Numbered from the stretch's first letter, positions 1,995-11,587 are shown. The stretch is DNA of 64,000 nt from Methanoregulaceae archaeon (GCA_020850325.1 JADZEW010000010.1:5759-69758), one strand, 5' to 3'. Program-made: numbers and translations. Notes: generated by a model from the letters alone, not told the origin.

Positions 1995-2995
1995 GACTGT
2001 CGGGCGACCACGAAGTCGGCGGCCGCGGCAAGCAGTTCGCGGGCCGAAGTTGCGGGCAGAACAGTGAGCGCGTCTTTCGCTTGGGTGATCGCGTCGGCGG
2101 CGGCTTGTTCGGCCTCGCGGAAGGCCCCGCGCGCTTCCATAAGGGCGATAATCTCCGGCACGTAGGCGATGGCGTCCGCCTGGCCGAATCCAGCCGAGAT
2201 GCGCGCTCGCTCGTCTTCGCCTAGATGCGGCCAAAGCGCGATGAGCGGCAACGTCGCGCAGCCCTCGTGGTAGTCGGTCGCGGCTGGCTTGCCGGTCTTG
2301 GCGTGGTCTCCGCGGTAGTCCAGCAGATCATCGACCAACTGGAAGGCCATGCCCACGTGGTGGCCGAACGTGCCCAGGGCAACCTCCTCAGCCTCGCTCG
2401 CTCCGGCAATCCTCGCTCCGACCCGGCAGCAGCACTCGATGAACGAAGCCGTCTTCATCCGCAGGATCTCGGCGTGCTCCTCGTAGCTAAGGTCAACCCG
2501 TCCGCGGATTTCCAGCTCACGAACTTCGCCCTCGGCGAGATCGACCACCGCGCGCGAAACCCGGCGGATTACGTCGAGATCGCCGTCTTCGGCGAGGACG
2601 GACATGGCTCGGCTGAGCAGTACGTCGCCCGAGAGAATAGCGGCGGTGCTGCCATGGACCGCGCTGGCGGTGGGCTGGCCGCGGCGGGTGGCGGCATCGT
2701 CGATAACGTCGTCATGGATGAGGGTCGCCATGTGGATCATCTCCATGCAGGCCCCCAGCCGCCGTGCCCGAGCCGGATCGAAGGGACGGCCGATGCTCTT
2801 GGCCGCGAGCCATACGAACGCAGGTCGCAACCGTTTCCCCCCCGCCTGAAGCGTGTGCGCGCCGATCGTCTCGACCAGAGCCACGCGAGAGCCAACGAGC
2901 ACACGCAGCTCCGCTTCGACCTCGGCAATGTGATCGCCGATCTGCCGCAGCGTGGCGTCATCGACGCGCCCCGCGAACGCCGCGGCCGCGGTCAT
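1991..2995 (-). CDS. trans-polyprenyl diphosphate synthase (hepta/octaprenyl type)
   Basis: Both Asp-rich motifs are present: LIHDDVIDDAATRRG and FQLVDDLLDY. 334 aa. Confidence 0.9.
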   Translation of the reverse strand: MTAAAAFAGRVDDATLRQIGDHIAEVEAELRVLVGSRVALVETIGAHTLQAGGKRLRPAFVWLAAKSIGRPFDPARARRLGACMEMIHMATLIHDDVIDDAATRRGQPTASAVHGSTAAILSGDVLLSRAMSVLAEDGDLDVIRRVSRAVVDLAEGEVRELEIRGRVDLSYEEHAEILRMKTASFIECCCRVGARIAGASEAEEVALGTFGHHVGMAFQLVDDLLDYRGDHAKTGKPAATDYHEGCATLPLIALWPHLGEDERARISAGFGQADAIAYVPEIIALMEARGAFREAEQAAADAITQAKDALTVLPATSARELLAAAADFVVARQS

Positions 2996-3717
2996 GGCTT
3001 CACCCCCAAATGCATGGCGATGTTGCCGAAAAAGAAGTCGCGAATCTTCACGTCGCGGAATCCCGCCGCCTCCATCGAGGTCCGGAGTTCCTCGCGGGTC
3101 TTAAAGCGCTGGGTGCTCTCGGGCAAGTAGGTGTAAGCCTCTCGCTGGCGGAAGATCGCGCCGAGGATCGGCAGCCCGCGACGGGTGAGCAAGTTAGAAA
3201 CCGCGCGGACCAGCGCCGACTTCGGCACCGCCATATCCACGGAAACGAACCTTCCACCGCGCTTCAGCACGCGGAAAATCTCGGCATGGGCGGCATCGAC
3301 ATCGGGCACGTTTCGGATGCCCCAGCCGACGGTGACCGCGTTAACCGATTCGCTTCGCAAAGGTAGGCGTCCGGCGTCGCCCAGCGCCCGTCCGGCCTGC
3401 TCATCCTTCGTTGACGATCGCTCGAGCATCGGCAAGCAGAAGTCAAGGCCGATCAGTTTGCCCTGAGGGCCAATGGCTTGCCGCAACGGCATGAAGAAAT
3501 CGCCTGTCCCGCAGCAGATGTCAGCAACGGTGTCGCCCGGCTTCAGTTGGAGAGCATCCACGGCGGCTCTTCGCCAGCGGTGATGCCCGCGCAGGCTCAT
3601 CAGGGAATTGCAGACATCGTAGGTCGGCGCAATCGCCGCAAACATCCGTTGCACGGCGGCGCGCTTCTCTTGCCCTTCCGCGACCCACGTCGCAGAATCC
3701 GATGCCCGGACGGCCAT
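2992..3717 (-). CDS. ubiE: demethylmenaquinone/ubiquinone C-methyltransferase
   Basis: UbiE/MenG family. N-terminal VQRMFAAIAPTYDVCNSLMS and SAM motif VADICCGTGD. 4-nt overlap with the polyprenyl synthase gene. Confidence 0.9.
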   Translation of the reverse strand: MAVRASDSATWVAEGQEKRAAVQRMFAAIAPTYDVCNSLMSLRGHHRWRRAAVDALQLKPGDTVADICCGTGDFFMPLRQAIGPQGKLIGLDFCLPMLERSSTKDEQAGRALGDAGRLPLRSESVNAVTVGWGIRNVPDVDAAHAEIFRVLKRGGRFVSVDMAVPKSALVRAVSNLLTRRGLPILGAIFRQREAYTYLPESTQRFKTREELRTSMEAAGFRDVKIRDFFFGNIAMHLGVKP

Positions 3718-3743
3718 AACACTCTATATACCCCGGCGGTGGT

Positions 3744-3771
3744 CGAAGTTTCAGAAACGAGTGAAACTTCG
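3744..3771 (-). terminator. 9-bp perfect hairpin between PadR/HAAS operon and ubiE (possible terminator/attenuator)
   Basis: cgaagtttc (3744-3752) pairs with gaaacttcg (3763-3771), with a 10-nt loop. No U-tract follows, so terminator function is uncertain. Confidence 0.3.
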
Positions 3772-3782
3772 GAGCCCTCGCT

Positions 3783-4835
3783 CTAGGTTAGTTGTCGCAA
3801 CCATCGGCGACGACGGAGCGCAGACTGGGTCCCAAGGACCGCCAAGACCGTCCCGTTGATCAGCAGAGCGAGCAGAGAGCCCAAGCCACTGATGAGCATA
3901 AGTGCCCCGCCCAGCGCCTGCCATTGGCTCCAGGGCGTCGACGGAAGCAAGTTGGATAGTGCACGGCGCTCGACCAAGACGTGGTCTCGCTGGATTTCAA
4001 GAAATCGTAAGTACATCTCTAGGTTGTTAGCCCAAACTAAGCGGGCTTCGGCCTGAGTATCAAACTCCGCCAGCGCCAGATAGATCTCGCCGCGAACCGG
4101 ATTAAACGAGCCTGAGCGAGGGTGGCCTGGCAGGGTTCTCCGGCCGGCAGATGAGGTCGGCGCCAACCAAGGATCATTGCCTATAAGTTGATCGAGCAGA
4201 CTGGGATCGCTCGTCTGCTGCCACTGACGCATCTTTGCGGTGTCAGTCTCGTAGGCCGCAAGCCACCCGTCGATGTCAGCCAGTTCCCTACCCAGCGTCG
4301 GCGTGAAAACATGCCCGACTTCACTTCCGATTCGGAACGGTCGAGTGGTGAATGCCATGAACACGGAAAGGACGAACGTGAAGGCCAATGCAAGGGCAAT
4401 GGTCGGTACGGCGACCCATCTGCGGCTCCGAATCGCAAGGTAGCCGATGAGCGGCAGGGCCAGTGCTGAGCCCCAAAGCAACCACGAAATCAAGGCTGTT
4501 TCGTGAACTCGCGGAGACTCGATGATGGCCAGGAGAAAGGCAATCGAGAGTAAAGAGCCTAATGAAGTCGCCAGCAAGACTCCCCGCCGAACGGTCCTTG
4601 TCGTCACTCCCGTTCCACCCAAGGCACTTGCGGCGATTCCCTGCGGATCACCGAACTCGCGAACTGCGGTTCGCTCGGCGCTCCGTGGGGACGCGCCTTG
4701 CTGGGTCAGTTCCAAAATCCGCTCATCGAGATGTGCCCGAACCTCGGCGAGGAAGCTTTCGACCCGATCCGAATCGAGCTTGCCTTCTAGATGCCGATTG
4801 AGTTCGACGAGATACCAGTCAACGTAGTTAAGCAC
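3783..4835 (-). CDS. PadR-associated membrane protein (DUF1700/HAAS-like N-terminus, multi-TM)
   Basis: N-terminus (LNRHLEG...ESFLAEVRAHLDE...EFGDPQGIA) matches the DUF1700/HAAS pattern. Several hydrophobic segments follow. 8-nt overlap with the padR gene. Confidence 0.7.
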   Translation of the reverse strand: MLNYVDWYLVELNRHLEGKLDSDRVESFLAEVRAHLDERILELTQQGASPRSAERTAVREFGDPQGIAASALGGTGVTTRTVRRGVLLATSLGSLLSIAFLLAIIESPRVHETALISWLLWGSALALPLIGYLAIRSRRWVAVPTIALALAFTFVLSVFMAFTTRPFRIGSEVGHVFTPTLGRELADIDGWLAAYETDTAKMRQWQQTSDPSLLDQLIGNDPWLAPTSSAGRRTLPGHPRSGSFNPVRGEIYLALAEFDTQAEARLVWANNLEMYLRFLEIQRDHVLVERRALSNLLPSTPWSQWQALGGALMLISGLGSLLALLINGTVLAVLGTQSALRRRRWLRQLT

Positions 4836-5608: not shown

Positions 5609-6469
5609 TCAGTCTGCGGGAGCGATGACGACGCGCCGATTGGGCTCTTCGCCTTCGCTATACGTGGAGACTCCAGGCATCTCGGAGAGCGCCTTGTGCA
5701 CCAAGCGACGCTCGAACGCGGGCAGCGCATCGAGCACGGCTTCCTCGCCGCGCTCGAGGACCGCTTCCGCGATCTTCTTGGCCAGGTCGGTCAGCTGCTG
5801 CTCGCGACGGGCTCGGAAGTCGTTGCCGTCGAGGACGGTGCGAACGCCGTTGCCCCACTGCTGGGTCGCCACGATGTTGATCAGATACTGCAGCGAGTTC
5901 AGGACTTCGCCGTGCTTGCCCACCAGGTAACCGGCATCCTTGCCGTCGAGCCGGACGTTCACGTACTTGCCCGCGACTTCGGTGGACTGGACATTCACGT
6001 CTAGCTCGGCCCGGTCCATCAGGTCGTTCAAGAGCGTGACGAAGTGGTCGGCATCTTCGGCGGTCGCTACCGGCTCGTTCCCGGCGGGTGCATCGGCCTT
6101 GGGCTCCGCCTTGGCGGCGGCCTTTGCCGCGGGCTTTGCCGGAGCTTCGGCCTCGGCGGGCTTGGATCGGCCGCGCGGCGTGCGAGCAGGTTTAGCCGGC
6201 TTCTCGGGTTCGGGTTCCGGCTCGGGAGCGGCTTCGACCACGGGCGCGGGCGCGGGTTCGGCCTTGGCCTTGCCACGCGGAGCGCGGGCGGGCTTCGCCG
6301 GAGCGGCCTCAACCACTTCGGCTCGAATGCGAACATTCGACTTGCCGAAGAGGCCCTTGGTCTCTTCCAGAACCTGGACGTTGAGCTGATCGACGCTCAC
6401 CCCAAGCTGCTTGGCGGCTTGGGCTTTGGCTTCGTCGAGTGACTTTGCGGTGATTTCGGTGACTTGCAT
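5609..6469 (-). CDS. jag: Jag/KhpB RNA-binding protein (Jag_N, KH, R3H) with long A/P/E/K-rich linker
   Basis: ATG at 6469 is preceded by GAAGGAAGAG, so the track's TTG start at 6484 is likely too long. Jag_N (ITAKSLDEAKAQAAKQLGV). C-terminal KH/R3H (GYLVGKHGEVLNSLQYL, ERRLVHKAL). Confidence 0.9.
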   Translation of the reverse strand: MQVTEITAKSLDEAKAQAAKQLGVSVDQLNVQVLEETKGLFGKSNVRIRAEVVEAAPAKPARAPRGKAKAEPAPAPVVEAAPEPEPEPEKPAKPARTPRGRSKPAEAEAPAKPAAKAAAKAEPKADAPAGNEPVATAEDADHFVTLLNDLMDRAELDVNVQSTEVAGKYVNVRLDGKDAGYLVGKHGEVLNSLQYLINIVATQQWGNGVRTVLDGNDFRARREQQLTDLAKKIAEAVLERGEEAVLDALPAFERRLVHKALSEMPGVSTYSEGEEPNRRVVIAPAD

Positions 6470-6487
6470 ATTCTCTTCCTTCAAACC

Positions 6488-7813
6488 TTACTTCTTCTTG
6501 CGCTTCGGCTGGTGGCGCTGAGGCACACCGGTCTTCGCGGGAGGGTTCTTGACAACGCCGTTCATGGCACCGGGGATCGCTCCACCGGCGGCGGACACTT
6601 TCTTCTGCAACGGGGCGACCGGCAGCCGATATGAATACAGGGACTGCGCGGTCGCGAGCACGTTCGTGAACGTCCAGTACAGCACGAACGCGCTGGGGAC
6701 CGGCCAGAAGAACATCATCACGCCAAAGATGCCCGAGATCGAAACACCCATGATCCGCTGCTGGCGTGCGTTCATCGGGTCCGAGACCGGCATCAGCAAC
6801 GCCGTCGCGACCATCGAGATCGCGTACAGCGTGAGCAGGATGTAATCCTTCTGTCCCAGGTTCGCGGCAACAAATCCGCTCGTGCTCTGGCTCAAGGCCG
6901 GGTTAATCCACAGGAACAACCCGTTCTCAAACTCGAACCGGTAGTGCAGCATCGCCTGGTAGATCATCAAGAACAACGGCAGCTGCAGCAACATGGGGAA
7001 GCACCCGGAGGCGGGGTTGATGCCGTACTGTGAGTACAGCCCCATCATCTCCTGGTTCATCTCCTGCTGCTCTTGCATGGCCAGCGGCTTGCCGTCCTTG
7101 CGCTTGTACTTCTCCTTGATCTCATTCATTAAGGGCGAGAGCTGGCTCATCTGCCGGCCGAACATGATCTGCTTCTGCGTGAGCGGAAACACCACGGCCC
7201 GGACAACGATGGCCAAGAGGAGACAAGCGAAGGCATAGCTGATCGCGGGGACGGCTCCCGTTGCGCGCACGAGCATGTCGATCAGCTGATAGCCGGGAAA
7301 GAAGCCCCACACCGGAGTCGTCCGGCCAAGTTCGCTCGAAATCTGGCGGACCTTTTCCTTCAGTTCCTTGGGCGAAATCTCTGACGCGGGAAAGTCCTTG
7401 TGAGAGGCGATCTTGACCGGCGCATTCCACAGCGGGTGCTCCGGCCCAAGCTTGCGCTCCCAAGCCTGCAGCGCATCGTTGGTCGTGATCACGCGGTTGA
7501 TGTCCTGGCGTTGGATCGCGGACTTGTATTGGGTGTCGGCGACGAGGACCAACCCCTCAAGCCGCAGCTTCTCTTTCTGCTCCTCGGTGAGCTTGGGGTC
7601 CTGATCAATCGACTTCGTATAGTCGGGATAGGTGCGCAGGGCGATCGTCTGGTCGAGGATCTTCGCGTTGTTGGTCTGCATCTCAAGCTGCAGCTCGGCG
7701 AAGGGCTTGGCGGGAGCCCGGCTCGGCCCCACGATCAGCAGGTTGTAGCCGAGAAAGATCACGGCGGTCCATAGCAGGATGGACATGAAACTACTGCGAG
7801 GTCTTTGTTGCAT
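6488..7813 (-). CDS. yidC: membrane protein insertase YidC
   Basis: 441 aa. 60-kDa IMP core (GCFPMLLQLPLFLMIYQ, PSAFVLYWTFTN), basic C-tail, conserved position after yidD. Confidence 0.93.
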   Translation of the reverse strand: MQQRPRSSFMSILLWTAVIFLGYNLLIVGPSRAPAKPFAELQLEMQTNNAKILDQTIALRTYPDYTKSIDQDPKLTEEQKEKLRLEGLVLVADTQYKSAIQRQDINRVITTNDALQAWERKLGPEHPLWNAPVKIASHKDFPASEISPKELKEKVRQISSELGRTTPVWGFFPGYQLIDMLVRATGAVPAISYAFACLLLAIVVRAVVFPLTQKQIMFGRQMSQLSPLMNEIKEKYKRKDGKPLAMQEQQEMNQEMMGLYSQYGINPASGCFPMLLQLPLFLMIYQAMLHYRFEFENGLFLWINPALSQSTSGFVAANLGQKDYILLTLYAISMVATALLMPVSDPMNARQQRIMGVSISGIFGVMMFFWPVPSAFVLYWTFTNVLATAQSLYSYRLPVAPLQKKVSAAGGAIPGAMNGVVKNPPAKTGVPQRHQPKRKKK

Positions 7814-7824
7814 ATGAAAGCGGT

Positions 7825-8034
7825 TTAAGGAACGGGGTCATGCCCGCCGGGGCGGAACGGGTGGCATCGCATGATACGTCGAAAGCCCATCCAAGAGCCC
7901 TTGAGCAGCCCGTATTTTTGAACGGCCTGAAGGGTGTACTCCGAGCAACTGGGGGTGTACCGGCATGTCGGGGGCATCCATCGGGTAGATCGTTGGTAGC
8001 ATCGAATTAGGAAGACTCCGATCGATTTGCCCAT
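7825..8034 (-). CDS. yidD: membrane protein insertion efficiency factor YidD
   Basis: 69 aa. IRCYQRS...CRYTPSCSEYTLQAVQKYG...RIMRCHPF signature. Overlaps the rnpA 3' end. Confidence 0.93.
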   Translation of the reverse strand: MGKSIGVFLIRCYQRSTRWMPPTCRYTPSCSEYTLQAVQKYGLLKGSWMGFRRIMRCHPFRPGGHDPVP

Positions 8035-8360
8035 CTCCGTGCGGTCTCTTCAATCCCCTGGCGTAGCTCGTTTCGAAGCCCATCGAACGTCACATTCGCG
8101 GCCTCGGCCTTGGCCTGGATGATCACATCGAGGCCGGGAGGTAGGAGCGGTGTCAACTCTCGAAAGGCGGATTGGAGCCGCCTCCTAACTCGATTGCGCT
8201 GGGGACGGTTCCCAATCGCTCGGCTGGTGGCGAAACCAACGTGTTCTGATCCGGACAACGAGAAGATGCGGAGAGTGGCGGTTGACACTCGTTGTCCTTC
8301 GCGGTAAACAACTTCGAATCGGCGCTTTGTCGGCCCGGAGCGATACGCCCGGTTGAGCAC
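8007..8360 (-). CDS. rnpA: ribonuclease P protein component
   Basis: 117 aa, GTG start 2 nt after the rpmH stop. RNase P protein RNR-like motif (AIGNRPQRNRVRRRL). Confidence 0.9.
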   Translation of the reverse strand: MLNRAYRSGPTKRRFEVVYREGQRVSTATLRIFSLSGSEHVGFATSRAIGNRPQRNRVRRRLQSAFRELTPLLPPGLDVIIQAKAEAANVTFDGLRNELRQGIEETARRWANRSESS

Positions 8361-8640: not shown

Positions 8641-8871
8641 GTGAACGCTCCTGTTGTTGCCGCTTCCAAGACAAAGGCCATTCTCGTGATGCTGTCGGGG
8701 CTGCTCTACGGCGCATCTCCGATCGATCTGATTCCGGACATCGTTCCACTCCTCGGATGGTCCGACGATGCGGTTGTGCTGCTAACGGCGGGCGTCATCG
8801 CGTTTCGGTTGCTTCGGCGGCAACGTCAGGCGATGAAAGCCCGCACCAGCGCCGGCACACTGCCGTCGTAG
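8641..8871 (+). CDS. DUF1232 (YkvA-like) small membrane protein
   Basis: C-terminal part of ORF 8353..8871 carries LLYGASPIDLIPDIVPLLGWSDDAVVL, the DUF1232 signature. The upstream part is antisense to rpmH/rnpA. Start uncertain (GTG 8641 or ATG 8689). Confidence 0.65.
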   Translation: MNAPVVAASKTKAILVMLSGLLYGASPIDLIPDIVPLLGWSDDAVVLLTAGVIAFRLLRRQRQAMKARTSAGTLPS

Positions 8872-9806
8872 CCGATCACGTGCAGGATGTCCGGGGATTC
8901 GATCTCGCCAAAGAGTGCGCGCGGACCTAGCCCAACTACGACCAACCGGCAGGACTTCTTCAGAAGATGCTCCGGGCTGGAACGGGCATTCCATGTATCC
9001 GCGTCGGTGATCATGATGATCGCATCGAAAATCCCCTCCTGCGCGAACGGAACCGAATGATCCACCCAGCCGCCATTCGAGGGCAGTTCGGTTACGGGTG
9101 CGGATAAGGGAAATGATCGATCGGAAAAACCGATGAGGGTCGCTTGAGTCAAGCCCGCCAGCGCGTTGGCTAACTCGGTCGCGACCGCCGCGTGAGCTCC
9201 GTGCATCGACGTTGACGCGTCGATCGCGATCAACGTGCTTCGTTCAGTCGGTTCCAGCCGCTCGGGTTCAGTTGGCTTCACTTTTTCCTCGACGGATGGC
9301 GCATGGCCCTCCCCCGTTGTGATCCACTGGAACAGCTGTTCGTGCTCCGGCGATGGAGCGGCGGGATGAGCCAGTCGCAACAAGTCTCGATGCGACCAGC
9401 CGGCCATTTCGGGGCAAGTGACAATCTCGCGCGACAGTTCATCGACGCTGCGCACGGTGTACCAGCGGCCCACCGCCGTGCGGAGCCCGCGACCCCAACC
9501 TCGCAGCCCGCGACAGGCATCGCAAAAGGCGAACAACTCGGCAGACGTGCTTAGAAACGATGGCATCGCAGCGAGCGCATCGCGGCGGGTTGGGGCGTCG
9601 CCCAACGAAGCCGCCATCGCCAGAGCATAGGCCTGGGCGGACTTCCGACCCTCGCCGAGGATCATCGTCACCGCGTCGGGACCGAGATCGCGGATCGCCG
9701 CCGCCGTGTGGATAGCATCTTCGGGGGCGTAGGTGAACTCGCCAGTTCGGCAGAGGGTCCCTTCCGTGCCGAGCGCGAGGAATCTTTGGAATCGCGTGAT
9801 CTCCAT
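8826..9806 (-). CDS. short Ro60-like protein (TROVE N-terminal half plus small vWA domain)
   Basis: RFQRFLALGTEG, GWGRGLRTAVGRWY and GWSHRDLLRLAHP align with the Ro60 motifs RFLCFGSEGGTYY, WGRALRKAIADWY and GWSHKDLLRLSH (recalled from memory). C-terminal vWA with MIDAS DASTS. ATG 9806 preferred over the track's TTG 9839. Confidence 0.8.
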   Translation of the reverse strand: MEITRFQRFLALGTEGTLCRTGEFTYAPEDAIHTAAAIRDLGPDAVTMILGEGRKSAQAYALAMAASLGDAPTRRDALAAMPSFLSTSAELFAFCDACRGLRGWGRGLRTAVGRWYTVRSVDELSREIVTCPEMAGWSHRDLLRLAHPAAPSPEHEQLFQWITTGEGHAPSVEEKVKPTEPERLEPTERSTLIAIDASTSMHGAHAAVATELANALAGLTQATLIGFSDRSFPLSAPVTELPSNGGWVDHSVPFAQEGIFDAIIMITDADTWNARSSPEHLLKKSCRLVVVGLGPRALFGEIESPDILHVIGYDGSVPALVRAFIA

Positions 9807-10363
9807 GAGCGGATGGCAGAAGCAAAGAGGGTCCGCCAAGGCTAGGCAAGGTCTCGGCCTTCCGGCGTTTTCATCTGTTGCCCTGAGTAACCAGATGATA
9901 GCGCGTTCACAGCGTTCGGCCCCACCTCGGCGGACCGGGGAAGGTGTTAGACAGCTCTGTCTACGACGGGGAGTGGCGCATCCTCAAAACGCGGGACGCG
10001 ACGACGGGTCAAAGGAGAAGCGAACTTCTCAACGACGATCTTTCAAGTGGGGCGCCATGACGGCGCAAAGAGCGACGTCGGGCCCTAGAGGACGGGCTTC
10101 ATGTTCGCTGAGATAGTAGCCCATCGGCGCGGTGAATGTCAACCGATGGGTCCTTGGTCCGGGTTGCTCAGAACTTGGGGATCCCCAAGTCGGCGTTGTG
10201 ATGGATGACACGCGCCCAAAGTCGTAGCGACGGGATGATACGTGCCCGTCGGCGAACTATTACTGGACTGGACCAGCGGCACGTATCATCCGCTGGCTAC
10301 GAGAGCTTCAGGCGATGTGCATTTCGGCTACCACCACGGCTCGAGCGGCCACTTCCTCACGCG
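9807..10363. other. ~550-nt non-coding, densely structured intergenic region upstream of the Ro-like gene
   Basis: No credible ORF. At least 10 perfect stems: 9871-77/9892-98, 9948-54/9957-63, 10015-20/10025-30, 10052-56/10062-66, 10094-98/10118-22, 10120-27/10143-50, 18-nt palindrome 10173-10190, 10228-34/10245-51, 14-bp stem 10233-46/10278-91, and 10273-79/10290-96. Confidence 0.7.
10152..10277 (+). ncRNA. candidate Y-RNA-like ncRNA (closing helix UUGGUCCGG / CUGGACCAG)
   Basis: A 9-bp helix (10154-10162 with 10268-10276, 2 G-U pairs on the + strand) encloses two hairpins. The 5' arm UGGUCCG matches the conserved Y RNA 5' core. Adjacent to the TROVE gene. Strand and ends are unverified. 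Confidence 0.25.
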
Positions 10364-11587
10364 TCACCACTTTGGGAGAGGCTTGCCCACCGACAGATAC
10401 TCAAAGCGCCGCTCGCTTGAAGCCACGACGTTCCCCGCGCGGTCCAGATTCTCGGTCGTCAACGAGTGGATGAGATGGGTGTCGCGGCGGATGATCGCGG
10501 TAATGCGTATTCCCGACGAGCGCAACTCCAGAATCGAGCCGCGCATCTTGCCGACGGTGATCTCTCCGCGCACCCGAGCCTGCAGGTCGGGCTTCCACAT
10601 TGTCGAGAGCGGGTTGCGCCCCTGCAGCCAGCGATGGAGCATCGGCTCGATCTCCAGTCCTTGCTGGGCGAGCGCGGTCTCCACCTCGCGGAGCTTGGCC
10701 TTGCGGGACTGCGGCGCCGAGCCCCGCTTGGTGTATCGCAGCGTGCCGCCCGACCACTTCCACTCGCCACGCGCATTGATCTGCCGCGCCGCGCCATCGT
10801 TCAGCCAAACCTGAGTCACTCCCGAGCTGTCGGTGACTCGGTAGTTCGCGTAGCGCAGCCGACCGTGGGCGGCAAACGTCGCATTCAGCAAGTTGCTTGT
10901 GGCCGAATCGGTGGCCTTCGGATACGGCGGCGACTCGTAGAACTCGCTGACGCGACGGTAGTTGGACGGTACCGCGAACGACCCCGGCGAAGAGCTCCAC
11001 TTTGAGTACGTCCATCGCAATCCCGCTGCGCCGCTGCGGATCGCCACGGCAGCCAGCCGGCCGGTGGACTTGGAGAAGGTGATCTCGAACCGACCGGTTG
11101 GGGTGGTAGCGATCGCCTGACGGTTATCGCCGCGCTCGGTGATCTTCCAACCCCGTAGCTCACGCAGCGGACTGAGGAAGAGATCAAGCCCGACCGAGTC
11201 GGCAGCGATGCGGATGGGCTCGTCGAGCGCGATCGCTGACTGGAATCGCTCGGTCAAGGTGCCCTTGGCGACCACCTTGCGCTGCAGCATCTGGTGCGTA
11301 AGGTGATCGATGCCGTAAAGGGTGCCCCCGTTGAGAACGAACGACTGATCGACCGGGCCGGACTTTGCAGTCGGCACCATGCGCGCTCGATACCGCAGCC
11401 GATCCGAGCGGCGATAGCCCACTTCATAGGTGCCGCTGCGGTTTTGCTCGGTGCCGGTGGAACTGAAGGCGACCGAAAACGCTCCCGAGGTCGCTCGCTT
11501 GTGAACGGCCAGGCACCGATCCGCAAGTTGGTCGAAGGTGACCGCCGGAGCGGCAACCATAAGGATTCCCAAAGAGAGCATGGTCAT
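10364..11587 (-). CDS. secreted protein with two LolA-like (lipoprotein-carrier-fold-like) halves, coupled to ABC importer
   Basis: Signal peptide MTMLSLGILMVAAPA. Both halves show a LolA-like sequence pattern (pattern-level inference). ATG overlaps the permease stop (ATGA at 11584-11587). Confidence 0.6.
   Translation of the reverse strand: MTMLSLGILMVAAPAVTFDQLADRCLAVHKRATSGAFSVAFSSTGTEQNRSGTYEVGYRRSDRLRYRARMVPTAKSGPVDQSFVLNGGTLYGIDHLTHQMLQRKVVAKGTLTERFQSAIALDEPIRIAADSVGLDLFLSPLRELRGWKITERGDNRQAIATTPTGRFEITFSKSTGRLAAVAIRSGAAGLRWTYSKWSSSPGSFAVPSNYRRVSEFYESPPYPKATDSATSNLLNATFAAHGRLRYANYRVTDSSGVTQVWLNDGAARQINARGEWKWSGGTLRYTKRGSAPQSRKAKLREVETALAQQGLEIEPMLHRWLQGRNPLSTMWKPDLQARVRGEITVGKMRGSILELRSSGIRITAIIRRDTHLIHSLTTENLDRAGNVVASSERRFEYLSVGKPLPKW

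What the first reader, a model, noticed from the sequence alone, without database searches (positions are those of the whole stretch)
9807..10363. ~550-nt ORF-free, hairpin-dense region next to the Ro-like gene with a Y-RNA-like closing helix
The spacer between the LolA-like gene and the Ro-like gene has no credible ORF. It contains at least 10 perfect stems of 5-14 bp.

On the + strand, UUGGUCCGG (10154-10162) pairs with CUGGACCAG (10268-10276). That is 7 Watson-Crick plus 2 G-U pairs, and the G-U pairs become A-C mismatches on the other strand. The helix encloses about 105 nt that form two hairpins: the 18-nt palindrome at 10173-10190 and the stem 10228-34/10245-51.

The arm sequences resemble, from my memory of vertebrate Y RNAs, the conserved Ro-binding helix (5' GGCUGGUCCGA ... 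CUUGACUAG 3'), including the G-U pair after the CC. Bacterial Ro orthologues are known to be encoded next to their Y RNAs.

A 14-bp perfect stem (10233-46/10278-91) is mutually exclusive with two 7-bp hairpins (10228-34/10245-51 and 10273-79/10290-96). It also abuts the closing helix. This suggests a conformational switch.
Basis: partly seen in the sequence, partly recalled or inferred. Interest (0 to 1): 0.72.

Follow-up and report, generated by a model that had tools for sequence, protein, structure and literature searches.

The report
Y-RNA-like leader of a mini-Ro gene

Summary
The sequence facts are correct: the stems, the coordinates and the lack of an ORF. The proposed + strand Y-like helix (10154-62/10268-76) and its 'switch' are not supported. 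The helix has zero pairing probability in context. Its 3' arm lies in a segment (10191-10363) that is missing from most relatives.

The real feature is on the minus strand, the strand of the Ro-like gene. A sigma-70-type promoter (10142-10113) is followed by a ~300-nt leader (about 10106-9807) that runs to the start codon of a 326-aa mini-Ro (TROVE N-terminal part plus vWA).

The leader is more conserved than the coding sequence: 96-73% against 79-53% nucleotide identity. It is present in all 15 mini-Ro loci found.

Its 3' module (9936-9830) has a well-supported fold: 98% of cells paired and 10 pairs with compensatory changes. The invariant inner closing stem, GGGC[C]GAA/UUGCCU, reproduces the Ro60-binding helix of Y RNAs, including the bulged C.

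A covariance model built only from Y RNA candidates beside full-length rsr genes ranks this module first in 7 of 7 relatives tested. Scores are low: 12-19 bits, and 11 bits (E 1.6) in the window.

Best reading: a divergent, co-transcribed Y-like RNA partner or autoregulatory site of the mini-Ro. Binding is untested.

The parts
10149..10160 (-). Conserved GGNCC-N2-GGNCC motif (GGACCAAGGACC) just upstream of the -35 box. It looks like an operator or UP element.
   Evidence: Alignments give CGGNCCNNRGNCCC at the same position in all clades. Function is inferred only.
10113..10142 (-). Sigma-70-type promoter: TTGACA (10142-10137), 18 nt, TACTAT (10118-10113). The predicted start of transcription is about 10106.
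   Evidence: It is the only promoter-like site in 9700-10500, with 10 of 12 matches; shuffles give a mean of 0.2. Both hexamers are conserved in place while the spacer between them varies. The start site has not been mapped.
9807..10106 (-). A ~300-nt conserved, non-coding leader RNA that runs into the mini-Ro start codon.
   Evidence: Leader identity to relatives is 96/94/85/74/73%, against 79/76/63/56/53% for the CDS. Frame-breaking indels rule out coding. It is present in all 15 mini-Ro loci.
10005..10106 (-). 5' module, nearly invariant. It contains: hairpin GCCC-N8-GGGC (10097-10082), which overlaps a 5-codon mini-ORF (10102-10085); stem CGACGUC/GAUCGUCG; hairpin GCGCC-loop-GGCGC (10066-10052); and hairpin GAGAAG-UUCG-CUUCUC (10030-10015).
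   Evidence: RNAalifold gives these elements. Loops vary in length and sequence while the stems stay the same. There is almost no covariation because the module is too conserved, so the fold is tentative.
9945..10004 (-). Variable middle region with clade-specific hairpins, for example 9999-9976 and 9964-9947.
   Evidence: Length and sequence differ between clades.
9830..9936 (-). 3' Y-RNA-like module. P1 is the closing stem (9936-9916 with 9849-9830). P1a is 9913-9911 with 9859-9857. P2 is 9898-9892 with 9877-9871, with a 14-nt loop GUUACUCAGGGCAA.
   Evidence: Model R1 scores 131.9 bits here and 75-79 bits in the untrained loci L120/L121. 98.2% of cells are paired, against 31-48% for slid controls. 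10 of 28 pairs show changes on both sides, and 0 of 500 shuffles reach that.
9915..9922 (-). 5' strand of the candidate Ro-binding core, GGGC[C]GAA, with the bulged C at 9918. It matches the bacterial motif GNCGAAN0-1G and the vertebrate GGUC[C]GA.
   Evidence: Invariant in 14 of 14 distinct sequences. The motifs come from PMC4201824, PMC11277228 and the hY3 sequence in PMC13501136.
9844..9849 (-). 3' strand of the core, UUGCCU. It pairs with A-U, G.U, then C-G, G-C, G-C, G.U. The vertebrate counterpart is UUGACU.
   Evidence: Invariant except U to C (G.U to G-C) in L120/L121. Candidate Y RNAs at full-length rsr loci have the same (C/U)UUG(C/U)C(C/U).
8826..9806 (-). Mini-Ro gene, 326 aa. It has the N-terminal ~170 aa of the TROVE HEAT-repeat domain fused to a compact vWA domain. 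It lacks roughly the part equal to residues 211-363 of Xenopus Ro60.
   Evidence: Weak Pfam hits to TROVE and vWA_Ro60. PDB sequence hits to 1yvp and 2nvo at E of 1e-14 to 1e-15. AlphaFold pLDDT is 91.5. The best Foldseek match is Rsr 2nvo, E 7e-17, TMq 0.75. A family of 261-342-aa proteins exists.
10191..10363 (.). It is not part of the conserved RNA.
   Evidence: Absent in L081, L001 and L087. Conserved at 80% over 76 nt in L085/L086 only. Not repeated elsewhere in the window.

Best explanation
The spacer is the promoter and a ~300-nt structured leader of a mini-Ro gene, all on the minus strand. Transcription starts about 7 nt after TACTAT, near 10106.

The RNA folds into three parts: an almost invariant 5' module, a variable middle, and a 3' module of about 107 nt (9936-9830).

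The 3' module is closed by an 18-bp stem. The inner end of that stem is GGGC[C]GAA paired with UUGCCU. This is the same bulged-C helix through which Ro60 proteins recognise Y RNAs.

I propose that the 3' module is a diverged Y RNA. It descends from the Y RNA genes that sit directly upstream of full-length rsr genes on the same strand. The mini-Ro protein binds it.

Binding would either yield a small mini-Ro RNP after the leader is processed, or hold the protein on its own mRNA 13-62 nt before the AUG and so feed back on translation. Both could be true.

Shown here: the conservation, the fold of the 3' module, the sequence signature, the gene order and the Ro-like fold of the protein.

Inferred: the transcription start, binding by the mini-Ro, processing and autoregulation.
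For: - Conservation. The leader is more conserved than the CDS. It is found in every mini-Ro locus across five clades with 38-79% protein identity, although the upstream gene differs.
- Promoter. One promoter-like site, on the minus strand, is conserved in place.
- Fold of the 3' module. 98.2% of cells are paired and 10 pairs show compensatory change, while slid controls reach 31-48%. Model R1 finds the untrained loci L120/L121 at 75-79 bits.
- Signature. The core GGGC[C]GAA/UUGCCU is invariant. Against hY3, GGUC[C]GA/UUGACU, it keeps G.U, G-C, C-G, the bulged C, G.U and A-U, and replaces U-A by G-C.
- Literature on the signature. The bulged ninth nucleotide in GGUCCGA is critical for Ro60 binding (PMC11277228; PMC4726728). 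The core also fits the bacterial motif GNCGAAN0-1G (PMC4201824). A CGAA motif upstream of a phage Ro60 gene led to RNAs that bound that protein in gel shifts (PMC12135203).
- Positional homology. Model R2, built only from candidates beside full-length rsr genes, finds 149 hits in 78 rsr loci. Of these, 146 are on the rsr strand, mostly in arrays just upstream of rsr.
- R2 on the mini-Ro loci. Its best hit in each of 7 mini-Ro loci is the 3' module in the correct register, at 12-19.2 bits. In the window it ranks second, at 11.1 bits.
- Protein. The model is Ro-like. It keeps the invariant His147, which aligns with His187 of Ro60. The H187S mutant is described as lacking Y RNA binding (PMC11277228).
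Against: - No experiment or transcript data are available. The RNA ends, processing and binding are all unknown.
- The R2 score of the window copy is not significant on its own (11.1 bits, E 1.6). Typical Y RNA candidates score 21-73 bits.
- The 7+6-nt core pattern alone occurs 6 times in the window, against 4.2 expected. The sequence match carries weight only with its position, invariance and stem context.
- There is no Rfam hit. The same kind of Rfam scan also missed the obvious Y RNA arrays, so this says little.
- There is no tRNA-like domain of the kind YrlA RNAs have.
- The module is embedded in an mRNA leader rather than standing alone.
- The mini-Ro lacks about half of the HEAT ring, and I could not check which Y RNA contacts survive.
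- The 5' module has no assigned role.
Confidence: 0.6

Rival explanations
1. A + strand Y RNA of about 120 nt is closed by 10154-62/10268-76, and a conformational switch involves the 14-bp stem 10233-46/10278-91.
For: The complementary arms and stems exist as described. The isolated fragment 10150-10280 can form the helix.
Against: Pairing probability is 0.0 in any longer context. The 3' arm and the switch lie in a segment absent from most relatives, and that segment is decaying without compensation in L085. It is on the strand opposite to the Ro-like gene, whereas bacterial Y RNAs are on the same strand.
Confidence: 0.03
2. The leader is a cis-regulatory element that controls mini-Ro expression through something other than the mini-Ro, such as a small ligand, another protein or temperature. 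The Y-like core would then be a coincidence.
For: The structure abuts the start codon, 13-62 nt away. There is no obvious Shine-Dalgarno sequence in the linker. The invariant 5' module and the conserved loops have no Y RNA counterpart. The R2 score is weak.
Against: No Rfam riboswitch or leader family matches. The core, its bulged C and its place at the inner end of a terminal stem match the Ro site. R2 picks exactly this module in 7 of 7 loci. Y RNAs occupy the same position at full-length rsr loci.
Confidence: 0.22
3. One or two independent small RNAs with their own 3' ends are merely encoded next to the mini-Ro gene and are not functionally tied to it. The gene would then have its own promoter.
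For: Several relatives have U-rich tracts after P1, for example AUUUUUG in L081 and CUUUUCAGUUU in L088.
Against: The scan found no terminator, and the U tracts are not general (L118). No second promoter-like site lies between P1 and the AUG. The linker is as short as 13 nt. The RNA and the mini-Ro gene co-occur strictly in 15 of 15 loci while the upstream neighbours change.
Confidence: 0.1
4. The conserved stretch encodes a small protein, or is conserved only as DNA (regulatory sites).
For: A 5-codon ORF (MKPVL*, 10102-10085) stays in frame in all clades, with one synonymous change and one MKPIA* variant. The antisense strand has stop-free runs of 56-99 codons.
Against: Close relatives differ by at least five indels that are not multiples of three. 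Ten base pairs show compensatory changes. No ORF here matches Pfam. The mini-ORF overlaps a hairpin, which explains the same pattern.
Confidence: 0.03

Closest known systems
Bacterial Y RNAs (YrlA, YrlB, Yrn1; Chen et al. 2014, PMC4201824) and phage phiLo Yrl1/Yrl2 (PMC12135203)
   Same: Encoded next to the Ro60 homologue on the same strand, here directly upstream as in phiLo. A long stem is formed by the two ends of the module. The CGAA / GNCGAAN0-1G motif sits at the inner end of the 5' strand. The module is about 110 nt long.
   Different: There are no tRNA-like T and D arms, which define YrlA. The module is embedded in a ~300-nt leader that runs into the gene. Both strands of the core are invariant, whereas only the 5' strand is reported as conserved across bacteria. 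It scores low against a model of Y RNA candidates from rsr loci. Its partner protein is a half-size Ro.
Metazoan Y RNAs (hY1, hY3, hY4, hY5): the lower-stem Ro60 site
   Same: The inner helix keeps G.U, G-C, C-G, the single bulged C, G.U and A-U in the same order. One pair is compensated (U-A to G-C). The opposite strand carries extra unpaired nucleotides just above the site.
   Different: The opposite-strand bulge is 7 nt rather than 3. The helix below the core has a conserved purine-purine mismatch. There is no Pol III context and no La-binding oligo-U tail. No match to an Rfam family.
Ro60 / Rsr proteins (PDB 1yvp, 2nvo, 9nen, 9kop)
   Same: The N-terminal HEAT repeats and the vWA domain have the same fold (Foldseek E 7e-17). 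The GWSHRDLLRLAHP motif, including the His that aligns with H187, is kept. The DxSxS metal-site motif is kept in this clade.
   Different: 326 aa rather than about 500-540. The HEAT repeats that close the ring (about residues 211-363 of Xenopus Ro60) are missing, so a closed ring with a central cavity cannot form from one chain. The positions that align with K170 and R174 are not basic (T and M); what that means is unknown.
Autoregulatory mRNA leaders that mimic a protein's RNA target (for example ribosomal-protein leaders)
   Same: A conserved structured leader carries the protein's presumed recognition site just upstream of its own start codon.
   Different: No evidence of regulation is available here. 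The leader may instead be the functional RNA partner itself.

Membership tests
Y RNA (Ro60-associated ncRNA, broad sense) | [quoted passage not shown] | tested here: met
   P1 has 18 pairs, 9936-9916 with 9849-9830. 97% of cells are paired and 7 pairs show changes on both sides. The true RNA ends are unknown, so the stem closes a module, not a mapped transcript.
Y RNA (Ro60-associated ncRNA, broad sense) | A Ro-binding sequence on the 5' strand: vertebrate GGUCCGA with a bulged ninth nucleotide, or bacterial GNCGAAN0-1G / CGAA. | tested here: met
   GGGC[C]GAAC at 9922-9914 is invariant in 14 distinct sequences. It fits GNCGAAN0-1G as GCCGAACG or GCCGAAG. The bulged C and the flanking pairs match hY3. 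The core pattern alone is not rare in the window: 6 found against 4.2 expected.
Y RNA (Ro60-associated ncRNA, broad sense) | Encoded within about 4 kb of the Ro60 homologue, on the same strand. | tested here: met
   The module ends 24 nt before the mini-Ro start codon, on the same strand.
Y RNA (Ro60-associated ncRNA, broad sense) | A significant match to a covariance model of accepted or candidate Y RNAs. | tested here: inconclusive
   R2 (from 12 candidates at full-length rsr loci) gives the window copy 11.1 bits, E 1.6, rank 2 of 64 kb. Relatives score 12-19.2 bits and are the top hit in 7 of 7 loci. Typical hits score 21-73 bits. Rfam gives no hit, but Rfam also missed the rsr-linked arrays.
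Y RNA (Ro60-associated ncRNA, broad sense) | Bound and stabilised by the Ro protein, and accumulating as a discrete small RNA. | not testable with these tools
   This needs RNA immunoprecipitation, gel shifts, northern blots or RNA-seq.
YrlA subfamily | A tRNA-like domain with conserved T and D stem-loops. | tested here: not met
   ARAGORN finds nothing in the window. There is no Rfam tRNA hit. The only UUCG-containing hairpin has a 4-nt loop, not a T loop. By contrast, candidates at rsr loci such as L013 2552-2703 show clear T and D arms.
Ro60 / Rsr (for the neighbouring gene) | A TROVE HEAT-repeat domain plus a vWA domain. | tested here: met
Ro60 / Rsr (for the neighbouring gene) | A closed ring of about 500-540 aa with a central cavity. 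| tested here: not met
   The protein has 326 aa. It aligns with residues 30-210 and with the C-terminal vWA of 1yvp/2nvo only. The confident model has 10 helices and then the vWA domain. The short form is conserved as a family of 261-342 aa.

The most novel reading that the evidence does not exclude
A minimal Ro ribonucleoprotein. It would consist of a half-ring Ro60 paralogue that has lost the cavity used to thread misfolded RNA but keeps the Y RNA-binding face. This protein is always encoded behind its own ~300-nt RNA, which carries a Y-type binding site plus a second, invariant domain of unknown function. If so, Y RNA binding can be separated in nature from the ring function. The RNA would act both as partner (perhaps tethering an effector through the 5' module or the P2 loop) and as a feedback sensor on the mini-Ro mRNA.
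Probability: 0.35. Interest if true: 0.75.

Novelty: new variant of a known kind. Interest (0 to 1): 0.6.

Why it matters
Ro60 and Y RNAs are studied as a ring-shaped RNA quality-control machine and as a major autoantigen. What the Y RNA does for the protein remains an open question.

A natural Ro that lacks the part closing the ring, yet is strictly linked to a highly conserved RNA bearing the Ro-binding helix, would be a simple system for asking what the Y RNA interaction does on its own. It would also show how bacterial Y RNA genes can become fused to the leader of the protein's gene.

In practical terms, the case shows that neither Rfam nor a tRNA-like search would find such RNAs. A small model built from rsr-linked candidates reveals large same-strand arrays of Y-like RNAs upstream of rsr in many phyla.

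Tried and rejected
- Rfam. I ran four scans: the whole window at gathering scores, 9600-10600 and 9800-9960 at E <= 10, and 16 related loci. There was no Y RNA or other relevant family. Because the scan of related loci also missed evident Y-like arrays, I treat Rfam silence as uninformative.
- Metagenome DNA scan. The 19-base conserved word GAAAGATCGTCGTNGAGAAG gave 20 loci, all chance matches lacking every other conserved block. The scan was wasted.
- BLAST of the spacer against plasmids found no match.
- Model R1 (the 3' module) against 79 full-length rsr loci found nothing, so the RNA in this form is specific to the mini-Ro family.
- 5' module. RNAalifold gives plausible hairpins, but the module is too invariant for covariation. 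I did not establish its fold or any long-range pairing.
- A repeat or mobile-element origin for 10191-10363 was checked: there is no other copy in the window. It may be a decaying palindromic element or the terminator region of the upstream operon, but there is no T tract.
- Literature on Ro60 residues that contact Y RNA. The primary papers are not held. My recollection of which mutant loses Y RNA binding was the reverse of what the held review states (H187S), so I use only the review.
- Coding potential of the leader was rejected on indels, compensatory pairs and the lack of Pfam hits.

Full report
**1. The observation**

The finding covers the 557-nt spacer 9807-10363. Both flanking genes are on the minus strand.
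- 10364-11587 encodes a 407-aa protein with no Pfam match, so 'LolA-like' is unsupported.
- 8826-9806 encodes a 326-aa Ro-like protein.

The spacer folds better than shuffled sequence, but equally on both strands: z = -3.25 and -3.22. No ORF in it matches Pfam. The descriptive part of the finding is therefore correct.

**2. The proposed + strand helix fails**

- Thermodynamics. The pairs 10154-62/10268-76 have probability 0.0 whenever the neighbouring 14-bp stem is included. They form only if the RNA is cut at 10150-10280.
- Comparison. I found the mini-Ro protein in public data and fetched its loci. In the nearest relatives the spacer is only about 360 nt long.
- The whole segment 10191-10363 is missing in L081, L001 and L087 and in all more distant clades. 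That segment carries the 3' arm, the 14-bp stem and the supposed switch.
- In L085/L086 the segment is 80% conserved over 76 nt. There the 14-bp stem has two mismatches that arose without compensation. It is not repeated elsewhere in the window.
Read on the other strand, it is a GGNCC-N2-GGNCC motif immediately upstream of a promoter -35 box. GGWCC is its own complement, so two copies of such a motif will always look like a helix. That is my explanation for the apparent pairing (inference).

**3. What is conserved**

The ~360 nt next to the mini-Ro start codon are almost invariant among relatives whose proteins are 79, 76 and 60% identical. They remain recognisable in clades with 38-48% protein identity.

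| Relative | Leader nt identity | CDS nt identity |
|---|---|---|
| L081 | 96% | 79% |
| L085 | 94% | 76% |
| L087 | 85% | 63% |
| L088 | 74% | 56% |
| L091 | 73% | 53% |

(All.)

The upstream gene differs between clades: the 407-aa protein, a UvrA-like gene or an aminotransferase. The conserved block always sits directly before the mini-Ro gene. Close relatives differ by several 1-2-nt indels, so the block is not coding.

At its upstream end is the only sigma-70-like site in 9700-10500: TTGACA, 18 nt, TACTAT, on the minus strand at 10142-10113. Both hexamers are conserved in place while the sequence between them varies. This is the pattern expected of a real promoter.

The predicted RNA therefore runs from about 10106 to the ATG at 9806, in the sense of the mini-Ro gene.

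**4. Anatomy of the RNA**

- 5' module (about 10106-10005). It is nearly invariant. RNAalifold proposes four elements: a hairpin GCCC-N8-GGGC, a stem CGACGUC/GAUCGUCG enclosing the hairpin GCGCC-loop-GGCGC, and a hairpin GAGAAG-UUCG-CUUCUC. Loop lengths and letters change while stems do not. There is too little variation to test the fold.
- Middle (about 10004-9945). It is variable.
- 3' module (9936-9830). This part is well defined. It has an 18-bp closing stem P1 with one conserved purine-purine mismatch, a 3-bp P1a, and a 7-bp P2 with a conserved 14-15-nt loop.

On 14 distinct sequences, 98.2% of cells form standard pairs, against 31-48% when partners are slid by 1-3 columns. Ten of 28 pairs show changes on both sides, and 0 of 500 shuffles reach that. 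The alignment was fitted to model R1's structure, so its pair counts lean towards that structure. An earlier count on a MAFFT alignment of 12 sequences gave 98.8% paired and 4 such pairs.

A covariance model of this module (R1) found the two most distant loci, which were not used to build it, at 79 and 75.5 bits.

**5. The Y RNA signature**

The inner end of P1 is invariant: 5' GGGC[C]GAA (9922-9915, bulged C at 9918) opposite 5' UUGCCU (9849-9844).

Human Y3, whose sequence I took from primers printed in PMC13501136, has GGUC[C]GA opposite UUGACU. The order of pairs is the same in both: G.U, G-C, X-Y, C-G, bulged C, G.U, A-U. The single difference, U-A to G-C, is compensatory.

[quoted passage not shown] They also state that the ninth nucleotide within GGUCCGA is critical (PMC11277228). 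Here the opposite strand carries 7 unpaired nucleotides just above the core.

The core also fits the bacterial motif GNCGAAN0-1G (PMC4201824). It fits the CGAA motif that was used to find two RNAs upstream of a phage Ro60 gene, both of which bound that protein (PMC12135203).

One caution applies. The bare 7+6-nt pattern occurs 6 times in the window against 4.2 expected. On its own it proves nothing.

**6. An independent test**

I searched the 79 loci with full-length rsr genes for the same descriptor.
- It hit 27 times on the rsr strand and 7 times on the other strand, mostly just upstream of rsr. The consensus was GGGCCGAAG ... (C/U)UUG(C/U)C(C/U).
- Several hits have clear tRNA-like T and D arms, that is, they are YrlA-type.
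- Twelve of them aligned into a stem-bulge-stem with 10 of 17 pairs showing compensatory change.

A model built from these twelve (R2) behaves as a Y RNA detector. It finds 149 hits at E <= 0.1 in 78 rsr loci. Of these, 146 are on the rsr strand, usually in tandem arrays upstream of the gene, at 21-73 bits.

Applied without filters to seven mini-Ro loci, the best R2 hit in every one is the 3' module in the right register, at 12-19.2 bits. In the 64-kb window it is the second-best hit, at 11.1 bits, E 1.6.

So the module is picked out consistently, but it scores below ordinary members. I call this membership test inconclusive for the window copy and supportive for the family as a whole.

R1 does not find anything at full-length rsr loci. 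Rfam finds nothing, but it also missed the arrays just described.

**7. The protein**

The 326-aa product belongs to a small family of 261-342-aa proteins. Its sequence matches the first ~180 residues of Ro60/Rsr structures and the end of their vWA domain.

AlphaFold gives a confident model, with pLDDT 91.5 and pTM 0.88. Its best structural matches are D. radiodurans Rsr and vertebrate Ro60: E 7e-17 to 1e-14, TMq 0.58-0.75.

The protein lacks roughly the part that corresponds to residues 211-363 of Xenopus Ro60, so one chain cannot close the ring.

The motif GWSHRDLLRLAHP is kept. Its His147 aligns with His187, and a held review describes H187S as the mutant that lacks Y RNA binding. I could not obtain the primary structural paper to check the other contacts.

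**8. Mechanism**

Most likely (confidence 0.6), the 3' module is a diverged Y RNA that has become part of the leader of a shortened Ro gene, and the mini-Ro binds it at the bulged-C helix.

The consequence is either a processed mini-Ro RNP, or feedback on translation because the site ends 13-62 nt before the AUG. Both may apply.

Established here: strand, conservation, fold, signature and synteny. Inferred: the start site, binding, processing and regulation. The role of the invariant 5' module and of the conserved P2 loop is open. By analogy with other Y RNAs they could bind an effector.

The rivals are these:
- a leader that senses something other than the mini-Ro (0.22);
- independent small RNAs (0.10);
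- coding sequence or DNA-only conservation (0.03);

**9. Novelty and verdict**

I found no description of a half-size bacterial Ro or of a Y-like module in a Ro gene leader in the held literature. I rate it as a new variant of a known kind.

The specific helix, strand and switch were not.

Noticed in passing
window 8641-8871 (+): A small DUF1232 gene (Pfam E 1e-11) converges on the 3' end of the mini-Ro gene and overlaps it by about 45 nt. The same convergent DUF1232 gene is called just downstream of the mini-Ro gene in most related loci (overlapping its 3' end in many), although the upstream neighbour changes. It may be a functional partner.
   Followed up: partly
window 10102-10085 (-): A five-codon ORF, ATGAAGCCCGTCCTCTAG (MKPVL*), begins 4-5 nt after the predicted transcription start. 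It stays in frame in all clades, with CTC to CTT in one clade and MKPIA* in L120. It overlaps the hairpin GCCC-N8-GGGC, so a leader peptide and an RNA hairpin cannot be told apart here.
   Followed up: partly
window 10149-10160 (-); second copy-like site 10265-10274 (+): A GGNCC-N2-GGNCC motif lies just upstream of the -35 box and is conserved in all mini-Ro loci. It looks like a binding site for a regulator. A similar GGACTGGACC lies about 105 nt further upstream in the window only.
   Followed up: partly
loci L002-L080, mostly positions 2000-3900 (upstream of rsr at 4001): Model R2 finds 149 Y-RNA-like elements in 78 loci with full-length rsr, 146 of them on the rsr strand. They often form tandem arrays of up to nine copies (L013 has 9; L009 and L064 have 6 each). 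They occur across Armatimonadota, Chloroflexota, Myxococcota and Proteobacteria. An Rfam scan at gathering scores of 13 such loci reported none of them.
   Followed up: partly
loci L120 1821-2615 and L121 210-995: Even shorter Ro-like proteins (264 and 261 aa, about 40% identical to the window protein) carry the same leader RNA and the same DUF1232 neighbour.
   Followed up: partly
window 8826-9806 (-), protein P0001: The identical protein is labelled 'Methanoregulaceae archaeon' at NCBI. The window, however, carries bacterial jag, yidC and rnpA genes (5609-8360), and the closest genome hit is a Fimbriimonadaceae MAG (L001). The archaeal label is probably a binning error.
   Followed up: no
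window 10222-10246 / 10278-10302: A 25-nt, 88% complementary inverted repeat lies just after the stop codon of the 407-aa gene. It has no T tract and is not conserved beyond L085/L086. It may be a decaying palindromic element or a terminator-like structure for the upstream ABC-transporter operon.
   Followed up: partly
locus L120 1759-1820: Between the Y-like module and the start codon, L120 has an extra perfect 11-bp hairpin (GAUUUCAGAUU/AAUCUGAAAUC) and repeated AUCUGAAAUC words that the other clades lack.
   Followed up: no
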